A stretch of DNA of 48,241 nt from a virus (taxonomy: Duplodnaviria; Heunggongvirae; Uroviricota; Caudoviricetes): positions 1-48,241 of IMG/VR virus record IMGVR_UViG_2617270956_000008, one strand, 5' to 3'. The number at the start of each line of letters is the position of its first letter. The first letter of the stretch is position 1. The translations under genes and the position numbers were made by a program. The notes under the pieces were generated by a model. The model ran no database searches. It saw only the letters and a list, made by a program, of their open reading frames with translations, and had not been told where the DNA came from. Below are positions 45,836 to 48,241 of the stretch, piece by piece.

Positions 45836-48241
45836 ATGAGTAAAGTCTTTATTTGCGCCGCCATTCCGGACGAACAGGCAATAAAGGAAGAAGGTGCCGT
45901 CGCTGTAGCCACTGCCATTGAAGCCGGTGATGAACGTCGCGCCCGCGCAAAATTTCACTGGCAATTCCTGGAACATTATCCGGCTGCTCAGGACTGCGCT
46001 TATAAATTTCTTGTTTGCGAGGATAAACCCGGTATACCCCGCCCTGCCCTCGATTCCTGGGATGCTGAATATATGCAGGAAAACCGCTGGGATGAGGAAT
46101 CCGCTTCCTTTATTCCGGTCGAACCAGAATCCGATCCGATGAACGTCAATTTTGACAAGCTGTCCCTTGAAGTACAGAACGCGGTCCTGGTTAAGTTCGG
46201 TACATGTGAAAACATCACCGTTGATATGGCGATTGACGCGCAGGAATTACTGCAGGAAGACGTTGCTACCTTTGACGGGCATATCGTTGAAGCACTGATG
46301 AAAACGCCTGAAATTAACGCTATGTATCCGGAACGCAAACTGTTCGCTATCGGATGGGTTAAACACAAATGTAATCCGGGTGCCAAATGGCCAGAAATTC
46401 AGGCTGAATTACGTAACTGGAAAAAACGGCAGGACGCAGAGCGCAAAGAGACTGGAAAATACACGTCTGTTGTTGATCTCGCCCGCGCCAGAGTCAATCA
46501 ACAGCACACTGAAAACTCAGCAGGAAAAATCAACCCAGTCACTGCCGCCATTTGTCGCGAATACAAGCAGACATGGAAAACGCTGGATGAAGAACTGGCC
46601 TACGCTCTCTGGCCTGGCGATATTGATACCGGAAACATTGACGGCAGCATCCATCGCTGGGCAAAAAATGAAGTTATCGACAAAGATCGCGAAGACTGGA
46701 AGCGCATTTCCGCATCAATGCGCAAACAACCCGATGCCGTTCGCTACGACCGTCAGACTATTTTTGGCCTTGTCCGTGAGCGTCCGATCGACATTCACAA
46801 AGATCCCGTAGCACTGAACAAATACATCACTGAATACCTGACTACCAAGGGCGTGTTTGAAGATGACGAAGGAACAAATCAGGGCGCAGCTGGTACTCTC
46901 CCGTCACCAGTACCAGAAACTGATGCAGTGGAAACGGCAATGCCGGACAACGAAAAAACCGAATGCGAAGTGGAAGACGAACCATCTGTAGAGCGTGAGG
47001 GACCGTTCTACTTCCTTTTCACCGATAAGGACGGCGAAAAATACGGTCGCGCAAACAAACTTTCTGGTCTGGAAAAAGCACTGGCCCTGGGAGCTACGGA
47101 AATCACAAAAGAGGAATACTTCGCACGTAAAAACGGCACGTACTCAGGTTCACAACAAAATACTGGTGCATCTGACACGATCGCACAACCAGAGCCGGTA
47201 AAAGTTACCGCTGACGAAGTAAACAAAATTATGCAGGCAGCCAATATCAGCCAGCCTGACGCCAATAAGTTGCTTGCTGTATCACGTGGTGAATTTGTTG
47301 CAGGGATTAGCGACCCGAATGATCCGAAATGGGTGAAGGGGATTGAAACCCGCGATTCAGTGAATCAGAACCAGCAAGAAACGGAACAGAACGGCCAGAA
47401 AGCGGAACAAAACAGCCCAAATGCGTTACAAAACGAGCCAGAAACGAAACATCCTGAACCAGTGGCGCAACAGGAAGTGGAAAAAGTCTGCACCGCCTGC
47501 GGTCAGACCGGCGGCGGCAACTACCCTGATTGTGGCGCGGTGATGGGCGACGCAACATACCAGGAAACATTCGATGAAGAGTATCAGGTTGAAGTTCAGG
47601 AAGATGATCCGGAGGAAATGGAAGGCGCTGAACATCCACACAAGGAGAACACTGGCGGCAATCAGCATCACGATAGCGATAATGAAACTGGCGAGACGGC
47701 AGATCACTCAATTAAGGTGAACGGTCATCAAGAAATCACATCCACCAGCAGGACGTGTGACCATCTAATGATCGACCTTGAAACCATGGGAAAAAATCCT
47801 GATGCCCCGATCATCTCAATAGGTGCAATATTTTTCGATCCGCAAACCGGAGATATGGGACCGGAATTTAGTAAGACTATCGATCTGGAAACTGCTGGCG
47901 GGGTCATTGATCGGGACACCATTAAATGGTGGCTTAAGCAATCACGCGAAGCGCAATCTGCCATTATGACCGATGAAATCCCGTTAGATGATGCACTGTT
48001 ACAATTGCGGGAATTTATCGACGAAAACTCCGGTGAATTTTTTGTTCAGGTCTGGGGAAATGGAGCCAACTTCGACAACACGATTTTGCGCCGTTCATAC
48101 GAACGGCAGGGGATCCCCTGCCCGTGGCGTTACTACAACGATCGCGATGTACGCACAATCGTTGAGCTGGGGAAAGCCATAGACTTCGATGCCAGAACGG
48201 CTATTCCATTCGAAGGTGAGCGCCATAATGCACTTGATGAC
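45836..48241 (+). CDS. RecE/YdfE-like recombination exonuclease with C-terminal DEDDh (DnaQ-like) 3'-5' exonuclease domain, 3' end beyond window
   Basis: 802 codons open from the ATG at 45836 (GAGG SD) with no stop before the window end. RecE-like middle region (SRGEFVAGISDPNDPKWVKGIETRD, CTACGQTGGGNYPDCGAVMGDATYQETFDEE). C-terminal motifs IDLETMG, WGNGANFDN and HNALDD. Confidence 0.8.
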   Translation, partial: MSKVFICAAIPDEQAIKEEGAVAVATAIEAGDERRARAKFHWQFLEHYPAAQDCAYKFLVCEDKPGIPRPALDSWDAEYMQENRWDEESASFIPVEPESDPMNVNFDKLSLEVQNAVLVKFGTCENITVDMAIDAQELLQEDVATFDGHIVEALMKTPEINAMYPERKLFAIGWVKHKCNPGAKWPEIQAELRNWKKRQDAERKETGKYTSVVDLARARVNQQHTENSAGKINPVTAAICREYKQTWKTLDEELAYALWPGDIDTGNIDGSIHRWAKNEVIDKDREDWKRISASMRKQPDAVRYDRQTIFGLVRERPIDIHKDPVALNKYITEYLTTKGVFEDDEGTNQGAAGTLPSPVPETDAVETAMPDNEKTECEVEDEPSVEREGPFYFLFTDKDGEKYGRANKLSGLEKALALGATEITKEEYFARKNGTYSGSQQNTGASDTIAQPEPVKVTADEVNKIMQAANISQPDANKLLAVSRGEFVAGISDPNDPKWVKGIETRDSVNQNQQETEQNGQKAEQNSPNALQNEPETKHPEPVAQQEVEKVCTACGQTGGGNYPDCGAVMGDATYQETFDEEYQVEVQEDDPEEMEGAEHPHKENTGGNQHHDSDNETGETADHSIKVNGHQEITSTSRTCDHLMIDLETMGKNPDAPIISIGAIFFDPQTGDMGPEFSKTIDLETAGGVIDRDTIKWWLKQSREAQSAIMTDEIPLDDALLQLREFIDENSGEFFVQVWGNGANFDNTILRRSYERQGIPCPWRYYNDRDVRTIVELGKAIDFDARTAIPFEGERHNALDD

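What the first reader, a model, noticed from the sequence alone, without database searches (positions are those of the whole stretch)
45836..48241. RecE-like recombination protein carrying a DnaQ-like 3'-5' exonuclease domain
The N-terminal and middle parts parallel RecE/YdfE, including the Cys-cluster motif, but the C-terminal region shows DEDDh-type motifs (DLE, NGANFD, H-x4-D) rather than the 5'-3' nuclease of canonical RecE. The polarity of end resection, and the single-strand annealing partner expected downstream, may therefore differ from RecET or Red systems.
Basis: partly seen in the sequence, partly recalled or inferred. Interest (0 to 1): 0.5.

Follow-up and report, generated by a model that had tools for sequence, protein, structure and literature searches.

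The report
Common prophage RecE-scaffold 3'-5' exonuclease
The gene is the intact form of the E. coli K-12 pseudogene ydfE: a very common, already annotated prophage protein in which the non-catalytic front of RecE carries a DnaQ/DexA-type 3'-5' exonuclease instead of RecE's own nuclease, and it has no annealing-protein partner next to it.

Summary
Window 45836-48241 holds codons 1-802 of an 824-codon gene. It has three parts:
- aa 1-256 match YdfE, the K-12 Qin prophage pseudogene (88% identity).
- aa 262-626 match the non-catalytic middle of Rac RecE, including the Cys cluster.
- aa 643-802 are a Pfam PF16473 (Rv2179c/T4 DexA) DEDDh 3'-5' exonuclease domain (E 2e-60), with all five catalytic residues present.

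RecE's own PD-(D/E)XK nuclease is absent. The homology breaks at the start of that domain.

No annealase follows. In an identical complete copy, in viable phages and in distant prophages, the next genes are xis and int. No RecT, Red-beta, Erf or Rad52-type gene lies anywhere in the window. The prophage is Chi-rich, as reported for lambdoid phages without a recombination module.

The family is modular. The RecE/YdfE scaffold is also found fused to the PD-(D/E)XK nuclease, and RecT then follows. It is also found fused to a Rad52-type annealase.

The gene is not novel. The exact protein is in NCBI as "exonuclease". Its domain DNA occurs in 75% of complete E. coli genomes. Its biological role is untested.

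The parts
45823..45826 (+). GAGG ribosome-binding site, 9 nt before the ATG
   Evidence: Read directly from the sequence.
45836..48241 (+). Codons 1-802 of an 824-codon exonuclease gene, the intact ydfE. It is cut by the window end.
   Evidence: ORF. The full copy is L001:9001-11475, protein WP_032290541.1 'exonuclease'. PHROG 2082 matches full length.
45836..46603 (+). YdfE-type N-terminal region, aa 1-256. Function unknown.
   Evidence: 88% identical to K-12 ydfE. The AlphaFold2 model is confident over aa 1-205 (pLDDT >90). dN/dS is 0.14. No informative fold match.
46604..46870 (+). Helical module, aa 257-345, shared with Rac, Gifsy and HK225 RecE proteins.
   Evidence: BLASTP against RecE. 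tblastn hits to Gifsy-1/2 and HK225 RecE at aa 242-368. pLDDT about 90. dN/dS 0.14.
47003..47155 (+). Small beta-hairpin plus helix domain, aa 390-440 (GPFYF...GRANK...EIT.EEY).
   Evidence: AlphaFold2 pLDDT 81-89. dN/dS 0.08, flanked by near-neutral linkers at 0.80 and 0.88. Conserved in P0123 and P0133.
47246..47365 (+). Conserved block RGEFV.GISDPNDPKWVKGI, aa 471-510, shared with RecE.
   Evidence: Near-identical to RecE 460-495. dN/dS 0.11.
47480..47590 (+). Cys cluster / putative zinc knuckle, aa 549-585: C552-x2-C555-x7-Y563-x2-C566. The third Cys is replaced by Tyr (codon 47522-47524).
   Evidence: The family consensus is CxxC-x7-CxxC in RecE and in about 40 homologues. Tyr is seen only in this allele. 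dN/dS 0.14.
47591..47755 (+). Acidic linker, aa 586-640. Homology with RecE ends near aa 626 (...ETGETAD), at the start of RecE's nuclease domain.
   Evidence: Alignment A2. BLASTP endpoint is RecE 591. dN/dS 1.0.
47756..48241 (+). DEDDh 3'-5' exonuclease domain (PF16473), aa 641-802 of 824. Catalytic codons: D647 47774-47776, E649 47780-47782, D747 48074-48076, H797 48224-48226, D802 48239-48241.
   Evidence: Pfam E 2.4e-60. PDB sequence hit is T4 DexA 8KEL, E 1.4e-6. Catalytic residues aligned. dN/dS 0.22.
47742..47749 (-). Chi site (GCTGGTGG) inside the gene, one of 10 in the window.
   Evidence: 10 found against 1.6 expected; 9 are on the minus strand.
45368..45756 (+). Upstream genes of the same leftward early operon: dicB (45368-45556) and the DUF1482/ydfD-like gene (45547-45756).
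   Evidence: ORFs. RefSeq annotation of the identical copy. Pfam DUF1482. Same order as K-12 Qin dicB-ydfD-ydfE.

Best explanation
This is the intact ydfE gene of a Qin-type lambdoid prophage. It is the last gene of the leftward early operon before xis and int.

The protein is modular. A RecE/YdfE-type non-catalytic scaffold of about 640 aa holds several small folded domains, a Cys cluster and neutral linkers. A flexible acidic linker joins it to a DEDDh (DnaQ/T4 DexA-like) exonuclease domain.

That domain most likely removes nucleotides from DNA 3' ends by two-metal catalysis, using D647, E649, D747, H797 and D802. It occupies the slot that the RecE 5'-3' nuclease plus RecT fills in Rac-type prophages. 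Here it works as a solo nuclease without a cognate annealase.

The prophage has no recombination module and has a host-like density of Chi sites. The likeliest role is therefore trimming or processing DNA 3' ends during lytic growth, in cooperation with host recombination (RecBCD/RecA). It is probably not an exonuclease-annealase pair.

Shown here: domain identity, catalytic residues, gene order, absence of an annealase, purifying selection on each folded domain.
Inferred: polarity, DNA rather than RNA as substrate, timing of expression, cooperation with host recombination.
For: - Domain and catalytic residues.
- Scaffold homology to YdfE and RecE, with the break at the RecE nuclease boundary.
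- Gene order cI/DicA-like, ydfA, ydfB, ydfC, DicF, dicB, ydfD, exo, xis, int. It is seen in the identical full copy, in K-12 Qin, in viable phages and in distant prophages.
- No RecT in 80 viral contigs. Of 37 with at least 1.5 kb downstream, 30 show xis/int directly after the gene.
- No annealase homologue in the window.
- With the same YdfE scaffold but a PD-(D/E)XK domain (P0133), a RecT-family gene follows with overlapping stop/start. The annealase therefore tracks the nuclease module, not the scaffold.
- A 56%-identical stand-alone domain lies inside the epsilon34 Erf-SSB-exo-Abc2 module, which favours DNA and recombination.
- Each folded region is under purifying selection (dN/dS 0.08-0.22) while linkers are near neutral. 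58 intact full-length genes were found among 83 loci (80 IMG/VR contigs plus three phage records).
- Chi enrichment is 10 against 1.6 expected, 9 in one orientation. This fits the 'no Rec module, high Chi' class. PMC12315714 also notes DnaQ-type nuclease genes near int that it does not count as recombination modules.
Against: - No biochemical or genetic data exist for this protein in the literature searched.
- The Pfam family is named for an exoribonuclease, so an RNA substrate is not excluded.
- 3'-5' single-strand exonucleases usually inhibit recombination, as PMC12315714 points out. A helper role is therefore not obvious.
- The scaffold has no recognisable fold, so what it contributes is unknown.
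- This allele has lost one Cys of the cluster.
- The host copy sits in a decaying prophage with a frameshifted int and other pseudogenes.
- Expression from the early-left promoter is inferred from gene order only.
Confidence: 0.55

Rival explanations
1. Reverse-polarity two-component recombinase. The protein resects 3'-5' and hands 5' tails to a dedicated phage annealase encoded nearby.
For: - The scaffold is RecE-like.
- The same domain family sits beside Erf and SSB in epsilon34.
- The scaffold is fused to a Rad52-type annealase in ZF40 gp07 and relatives.
Against: - No annealase lies downstream or anywhere in the window.
- None is present in 80 related viral contigs, in three viable phages or in two distant prophages.
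- RecT appears only when the C-terminal domain is PD-(D/E)XK.
Confidence: 0.1
2. Anti-phage or superinfection-exclusion nuclease. Like the E. coli DexA homologue EcD ('HREX'), it would degrade modified (5hmC) DNA of incoming T-even phages.
For: - It belongs to the same Pfam family as T4 DexA.
- PMC12153337 reports that a plasmid-borne E. coli DexA homologue protects against T4.
- The gene is prophage-borne, and neighbouring dicB is known as a protective gene (my own knowledge).
Against: - The DexA residues proposed for 5hmC recognition are not conserved: W152 aligns with Y767 and D169 with A781. The tetramer residue D90 is retained as D719. The alignment is uncertain in this region.
- PADLOC gives only a generic Cas-associated DEDDh hit at E 1e-5.
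- The gene sits at the end of the repressor-controlled early-left operon, so it is probably silent in lysogens (inferred).
- EcD starts MIDTET. It was not found among the 120 closest homologues, so its relationship to this domain is untested.
Confidence: 0.15
3. 3' exoribonuclease acting on RNA, for example trimming operon transcripts or sRNAs such as DicF, as the Pfam family name (Rv2179c) suggests.
For: - The Pfam family is named for the M. tuberculosis exoribonuclease Rv2179c.
- NCBI names many members '3'-5' exoribonuclease'.
- DicF is encoded in the same operon.
Against: - The only solved structures found by sequence are of T4 DexA, a DNA exonuclease. None is of Rv2179c.
- Its close relatives sit in DNA-recombination contexts, and the scaffold is shared with DNA enzymes.
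Confidence: 0.1
4. Non-functional relic of a domain shuffle in decaying prophages.
For: - K-12 ydfE is an IS2-truncated pseudogene.
- The THO-006 prophage carries a frameshifted int and other pseudogenes.
- This allele has a Cys-to-Tyr change.
- Many database entries are fragments.
Against: - 58 intact genes of 821-831 aa were found.
- Every folded domain has dN/dS of 0.08-0.22.
- The gene is present in viable phages.
- The architecture is conserved down to about 36% identity.
Confidence: 0.03

Closest known systems
RecE (exonuclease VIII) of the Rac prophage, E. coli K-12
   Same: - The middle region aa 262-626 aligns with RecE 278-591. It is near-identical over the RGEF/DPNDPKW block, the Cys cluster and the acidic tail.
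[quoted passage not shown]
   Different: - It lacks the PF06630 N-terminus and the PF12684 PD-(D/E)XK 5'-3' nuclease domain.
- It scores 274 bits against the 1269-bit cutoff of the RecE equivalog model.
- No recT follows.
YdfE, a pseudogene of the K-12 Qin prophage (newer Pfam families YdfE_N PF27430 and YdfE_C PF27432)
   Same: aa 1-256 are 88% identical. The synteny dicA-ydfA-ydfB-ydfC-DicF-dicB-ydfD-ydfE-int is the same.
   Different: K-12 ydfE is cut by IS2 after about 256 codons. The window gene is the intact form with the RecE-like middle and the exonuclease domain.
T4 DexA (exonuclease A; PDB 8KEL/8KEN)
   Same: Same Pfam family and the same DEDDh catalytic pentad. It is the only solved structure hit by sequence (E 1.4e-6).
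   Different: - Identity is about 27-28%.
- DexA is a stand-alone 227-aa protein with extra loops.
- The residues proposed for 5hmC recognition are not conserved.
Salmonella phage epsilon34 gp34, a stand-alone 182-aa 3'-5' exonuclease
   Same: 56% identical to the C-terminal domain (E 2e-72). PF16473 matches full length.
   Different: It is stand-alone and embedded between SSB and Abc2, next to Erf, in a canonical recombination module. The window protein is fused to a scaffold and has no annealase.
EcD / 'HREX' E. coli DexA homologue (PMC12153337)
   Same: It is reported as a DexA-family exonuclease of E. coli.
   Different: It is a short stand-alone protein starting MIDTET. Its identity with this subfamily could not be checked. 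A defence role has been shown only for EcD.
Rv2179c of M. tuberculosis
   Same: It gives its name to the Pfam family that matches the domain.
   Different: It is an exoribonuclease. A sequence search of the PDB did not reach it.

Membership tests
RecE / exodeoxyribonuclease VIII (NCBIfam NF007259 equivalog) | Whole-protein score at or above the curated cutoff | tested here: not met
   274.4 bits against a cutoff of 1269. Only model positions 440-602 match.
RecE / exodeoxyribonuclease VIII | C-terminal PD-(D/E)XK 5'-3' nuclease domain (PF12684; RecE 564/606-866) | tested here: not met
   Ours gives no PF12684 hit, while K-12 and HK225 RecE both have it. The alignment diverges at RecE residue ~591.
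RecE / exodeoxyribonuclease VIII | N-terminal Exonuc_VIII domain (PF06630) | tested here: not met
   No PF06630 hit. The N-terminus is YdfE-type instead.
RecE / exodeoxyribonuclease VIII | Adjacent recT annealase gene | tested here: not met
   The downstream genes are DUF4224 and int. No RecT in the window or in 80 related loci.
RecE / exodeoxyribonuclease VIII | Shared non-catalytic middle region with CxxC-x7-CxxC cluster | tested here: met
   aa 262-626 align with RecE 278-591, E 3e-60. The cluster is present, with Cys3 replaced by Tyr in this allele.
PF16473 Rv2179c-like / DexA DEDDh 3'-5' exonucleases | Pfam score above the gathering threshold | tested here: met
   203.7 bits against 27, E 2.4e-60. 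Profile positions 2-165 of 177 match; the remainder is cut by the window end.
PF16473 Rv2179c-like / DexA DEDDh 3'-5' exonucleases | DEDDh catalytic residues (DxE, D, H-x4-D) | tested here: met
   D647, E649, D747, H797 and D802 are invariant in the alignment and correspond to DexA D7, E9, D119, H186 and D191.
PF16473 Rv2179c-like / DexA DEDDh 3'-5' exonucleases | Measured 3'-5' exonuclease activity, and substrate (DNA or RNA) | not testable with these tools
   Needs an enzyme assay.
YdfE family (Qin-type prophage; Pfam YdfE_N/YdfE_C) | N-terminal sequence identity and dicB-ydfD-ydfE-int synteny | tested here: met
   88% identity over 256 aa. Same gene order. Family names were seen on relatives. 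The local Pfam copy lacks these models.
Exonuclease-annealase two-component recombinases (lambda Red, RecET) | A 5'-3' exonuclease encoded next to a single-strand annealing protein | tested here: not met
   The nuclease is of the DEDDh type. No RecT, Bet, Erf or Rad52-like gene is in the window or beside homologues.
HREX / EcD modification-dependent defence exonuclease | Conservation of the DexA W152/D169 equivalents and loss of the D90 equivalent | tested here: inconclusive
   W152 aligns with Y767 and D169 with A781, so neither is conserved. D90 aligns with D719 and is retained, whereas this subclass loses it. Neither part of the criterion is met as aligned. The alignment is only 27% identical and gapped in this region.
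HREX / EcD modification-dependent defence exonuclease | Protection against T4 and selective cleavage of 5hmC DNA | not testable with these tools
   Needs an infection assay and a nuclease assay.

The most novel reading that the evidence does not exclude
The RecE/YdfE N-terminal region, whose function has been unknown for decades, may be a general recombination scaffold. Lambdoid phages would plug interchangeable effector domains into it: a 5'-3' PD-(D/E)XK nuclease (with RecT), a 3'-5' DEDDh nuclease (solo), or a Rad52-type annealase.

On this reading the DEDDh version is the most frequent of the three in E. coli. It would define a third, annealase-free phage strategy that trims 3' ends to steer host RecBCD/Chi/RecA recombination-dependent replication.
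Probability: 0.2. Interest if true: 0.6.

Novelty: already known. Interest (0 to 1): 0.3.

Why it matters
The gene itself is ordinary:
- The exact protein is in NCBI as 'exonuclease' or '3'-5' exoribonuclease'.
- Its 90%-identity cluster has 18,012 member sequences.
- It has a full-length PHROG, and newer Pfam releases have YdfE_N/YdfE_C models.
- DnaQ-type nuclease genes near int in lambdoid phages were noted in 2025 (PMC12315714).

What remains open is function. This fusion occurs in about 75% of complete E. coli genomes and at more than four times as many sites as the canonical RecE nuclease domain. No experiment on it was found.

The modular pattern has practical value. The same scaffold carries a 5'-3' nuclease, a 3'-5' nuclease or a Rad52-type annealase, and RecT tracks only the 5'-3' module. 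This gives a testable handle on what the enigmatic RecE N-terminal region does. That region matters for recombineering, because full-length RecE boosts linear-linear cloning.

Tried and rejected
- **Single-sequence AlphaFold2 of the 802-aa fragment.** pLDDT was 34, so the model was unusable.
- **Identity of EcD (HAK9828821.1).** I tried to decide whether it is this domain. Only its primers are available. Its N-terminus MIDTET was not found among the 120 best homologues. The C-terminus could not be read unambiguously from the reverse primer.
- **Direct tests that the phrog_2489 C-domain is Rad52-like.** The link was made only through stand-alone homologues, 40-44% identical, that are named Rad52/Rad22 family, one of which carries PF04098.
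- **Literature searches.** Searches for Rv2179c plus prophage, PF16473, and ydfE plus exonuclease found nothing relevant.
- **Supplements of PMC12315714** are not held, so I could not see how that paper classifies mEp460 or Tritos.
- **A weak lambda Bet tblastn hit at 3888-4019** (E 0.002, 45 aa) falls inside the RepL gene. I dismissed it as chance.
- **An internal start at M645.** Many 180-aa database entries begin there. There is no convincing Shine-Dalgarno sequence upstream, so I did not pursue it.
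Full report
**What is there**

From ATG 45836 an open frame runs to the last base of the window: 802 codons with no stop. A GAGG site lies 9 nt upstream. Megablast finds 100% identical copies in three complete E. coli genomes. In strain THO-006 the gene is 2,475 nt (824 codons; WP_032290541.1, 'exonuclease'), so the window lacks only the last 22 codons. The window ends exactly on the codon of the last catalytic residue, D802.

**Domains**

Pfam gives one hit: PF16473, the 'Rv2179c-like 3'-5' exoribonuclease domain', at aa 643-802 (E 2.4e-60, 203.7 bits against a cutoff of 27). A sequence search of the PDB finds only T4 DexA (8KEL/8KEN, E 1.4e-6).

I aligned the domain with DexA and five stand-alone enterobacterial homologues. 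D647, E649, D747, H797 and D802 are invariant and correspond to DexA's D7, E9, D119, H186 and D191.

Upstream of the domain:
- aa 1-256 are 88% identical to the K-12 Qin-prophage pseudogene ydfE, which IS2 truncates.
- aa 262-626 align with Rac RecE residues 278-591 (E 3e-60). From aa 480 the match is near-identical. It includes the block RGEFV.GISDPNDPKWVKGI, the Cys cluster and the acidic tail.
- The NCBIfam RecE equivalog model matches only its positions 440-602, at 274 bits against a cutoff of 1269.

Homology with RecE stops at ...ETGE(V/T)AD, about RecE 588-591. That is the border of RecE's nuclease domain. A review gives that domain as residues 564-866 and calls the N-terminal part 'of unknown function' (PMC11611040).

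The family's cluster is CxxC-x7-CxxC. This allele has Tyr563 (TAC) in place of the third Cys, which I saw in no other homologue.

**Structure and selection**

I took 55 distinct full-length genes from viral contigs, three phage records and the THO-006 copy and computed pooled pairwise dN/dS.

| Region (aa) | dN/dS |
|---|---|
| 1-256 | 0.14 |
| 257-345 | 0.14 |
| 390-440 | 0.08 |
| 471-510 | 0.11 |
| 549-585 (Cys cluster) | 0.14 |
| 641-824 (exonuclease domain) | 0.22 |
| 346-389 (linker) | 0.80 |
| 441-470 (linker) | 0.88 |
| 586-640 (linker) | 1.0 |

The measure is crude because it is pooled and ignores recombination. Even so, it agrees with the model's domain borders and argues against a decaying relic.

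Synonymous divergence is much lower in the 3' third (0.02-0.04) than in the 5' part (0.13-0.34). The gene is therefore a mosaic.

**Context**

The window matches the THO-006 prophage. The order is:
1. a DicA/cI-like repressor (42779-43186)
2. ydfA, ydfB and ydfC homologues
3. DicF sRNA
4. an inserted isrK/C4/Ash-Rha cassette
5. dicB
6. a DUF1482 (ydfD-like) gene
7. this gene
8. beyond the window: DUF4224, a tyrosine integrase and tRNA-Ser

This is the K-12 Qin arrangement dicA...dicB-ydfD-ydfE-intQ. Viable phages mEp460_ev081 and Tritos have the same order, and there the exonuclease gene is followed directly by xis and int.

**No annealase**

- None of 80 IMG/VR contigs carrying close relatives contains a RecT homologue. 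Of the 37 with at least 1.5 kb downstream, 30 show xis/DUF4224 plus int right after the gene, with two different integrase types.
- tblastn of RecT (two types), lambda Bet, Erf, Rad52-like domains, lambda Exo and Gam against the whole window finds nothing credible.
- Two prophages whose protein is only about 36% identical (RecE-type N-terminus plus DEDDh) show the same order: repressor, small genes, exonuclease, Xis, Int, then host genes.

**A modular family**

A search of 1.8 billion representative proteins, followed by Pfam scans, shows that N- and C-modules combine freely.

| N-module | C-module | Examples |
|---|---|---|
| RecE-type (PF06630) | PD-(D/E)XK (PF12684) | Rac and HK225 RecE |
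| RecE-type (PF06630) | DEDDh | P0124 (essentially Rac RecE 1-590 plus this domain); vB_EcoS-689R5 |
| YdfE-type | DEDDh | this gene |
| YdfE-type | PD-(D/E)XK | P0133 |
| YdfE-type | third C-domain (PHROG 2489) | Pectobacterium phage ZF40 gp07 |

The third C-domain has stand-alone 243-aa homologues, 40-44% identical (E about 1e-60). These are named 'Rad52/Rad22 family DNA repair protein', and one carries PF04098. Direct profile tests of this domain were weak. ZF40 gp07 is followed by a Mu Gam-like gene.

Where the C-domain is PD-(D/E)XK, a RecT-family gene follows. This is so in Rac, in HK225 and in the P0133 contig, where stop and start overlap. The annealase therefore goes with the 5'-3' nuclease module, not with the scaffold.

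A stand-alone copy of the DEDDh domain, epsilon34 gp34, is 56% identical (E 2e-72). It lies between SSB and Abc2, next to Erf, in a canonical recombination module. The domain family is therefore linked to DNA recombination in at least some phages.

**Fit with published work**

Zheng et al. 2025 (PMC12315714) report three relevant things:
- DnaQ-like 3'-5' nucleases occur in some lambdoid recombination modules.
- Sporadic DnaQ-type genes lie near int, and the authors do not count these as recombination-module members.
- 'RecE-2' proteins lack a nuclease domain.

Their main point is that lambdoid phages without a recombination module are rich in Chi sites and rely on RecBCD. This window has 10 Chi sites against 1.6 expected, 9 in one orientation and most of them in the replication-to-lysis part. 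That matches the class they describe.

Kang et al. 2025 (PMC12153337) show that T4 DexA is a 3'-5' DNA exonuclease. They also show that an E. coli homologue, EcD, protects against T4. Whether EcD belongs to this subfamily could not be checked. The residues they propose for 5hmC recognition are not conserved here. PADLOC gives only a generic DEDDh hit.

**How common**

- DNA of the exonuclease domain occurs in 4,069 of 5,426 complete E. coli genomes, at 8,111 places.
- DNA of the Rac RecE nuclease domain occurs in 1,736 genomes, at 1,827 places.
- The protein's 90%-identity cluster has 18,012 member sequences, named 'exonuclease' or '3'-5' exoribonuclease'.
- PHROG 2082 matches the protein full length.
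- Newer Pfam releases have YdfE_N and YdfE_C models.

**Verdict**

The label 'RecE-like recombination protein' is half right. The scaffold is RecE/YdfE-like and belongs to a recombination-linked modular family. However, the protein fails every tested catalytic and contextual criterion for RecE, and it has no annealase partner.

The most likely reading is a solo DEDDh 3'-5' DNA exonuclease tethered to the RecE/YdfE scaffold. It would be expressed with the early-left operon of a Chi-rich, recombination-module-less Qin-type prophage and would act on DNA 3' ends alongside host recombination.

Catalytic identity is well supported. Polarity, substrate, timing and biological role are inferred. The gene is already catalogued and extremely common, so novelty is low. 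The open question is what it does, and what the shared scaffold contributes.

Noticed in passing
window 44269-45357: DicF sRNA lies at 44269-44320. It is followed by isrK (44554-44630) and C4 antisense RNA (44655-44742), which sit at the 5' end of a 284-aa Ash+Rha-domain ORF (44503-45357). This looks like a P1/P7 immI-type antirepressor cassette inserted between DicF and dicB. The identical THO-006 copy is annotated with a partial dicB duplicate just before it.
   Followed up: partly
window 21273-47749 (10 sites): Chi (GCTGGTGG) occurs 10 times against 1.6 expected from shuffles, 9 on the minus strand. Sites cluster in the replication-to-lysis part of the prophage. This is the pattern described for lambdoid phages that lack a recombination module and rely on RecBCD (PMC12315714).
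   Followed up: partly
window 47522-47524: The third Cys of the conserved CxxC-x7-CxxC cluster is Tyr (TAC) in this allele. About 40 homologues, including RecE, keep Cys, and one has Ser. It might weaken metal binding.
   Followed up: partly
L010:3974-6139 (Pectobacterium phage ZF40 gp07) and proteins P0132, P0137, P0143, P0162, P0181: Proteins annotated 'exonuclease' (PHROG 2489) have the YdfE-type scaffold but no nuclease domain. Their C-terminal ~290 aa are 40-44% identical to stand-alone proteins named Rad52/Rad22 family. They are therefore probably scaffold-annealase fusions that have been mis-named. They may be the 'RecE-2' proteins of Zheng et al. 2025. ZF40 gp07 is followed by a Mu Gam-like gene.
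   Followed up: partly
L094:768-4354 (metagenome contig carrying P0133): A YdfE-scaffold protein with a PD-(D/E)XK C-terminal domain is followed by a RecT-family gene with overlapping stop/start and is preceded by a KilR gene. It is a RecET-like pair built on the YdfE scaffold.
   Followed up: yes
L092:26842-28613 (Salmonella phage epsilon34): The recombination module reads Erf, SSB, 3'-5' exonuclease (gp34, 56% identical to the window's C-domain), Abc2. The same DEDDh domain is therefore used stand-alone next to an annealase.
   Followed up: yes
window 45836-48241 compared with L012-L091: Synonymous divergence among prophage copies falls from 0.13-0.34 in the 5' two-thirds to 0.02-0.04 in the Cys-cluster and exonuclease part. 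The 3' end, next to xis/int, has spread or been homogenised recently.
   Followed up: partly
window 39242-39664 (-) and 43551-43678 (+); int lies beyond the window end: In the identical THO-006 copy, RefSeq marks three genes as broken: the DUF977 gene (internal stop), ydfB (frameshift) and the integrase (frameshift). This prophage copy is probably defective, although the exonuclease gene is intact.
   Followed up: no
window 1 to about 10000: Beyond the prophage tail-fibre genes, the identical genome is annotated with ComEA-family, RepL, two H-NS-family, DUF4756, DUF6404 and DUF6387 genes. This may be a separate small island or satellite next to the prophage. A weak lambda Bet-like tblastn hit (3888-4019, E 0.002) falls inside RepL and is probably chance.
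   Followed up: no
window 47768-47770 (Met645): Many database entries of about 180 aa begin at this internal Met (MIDLETMG...), which is exactly the start of the exonuclease domain. They may be deletion remnants or annotation starts. No clear Shine-Dalgarno sequence precedes it here.
   Followed up: no
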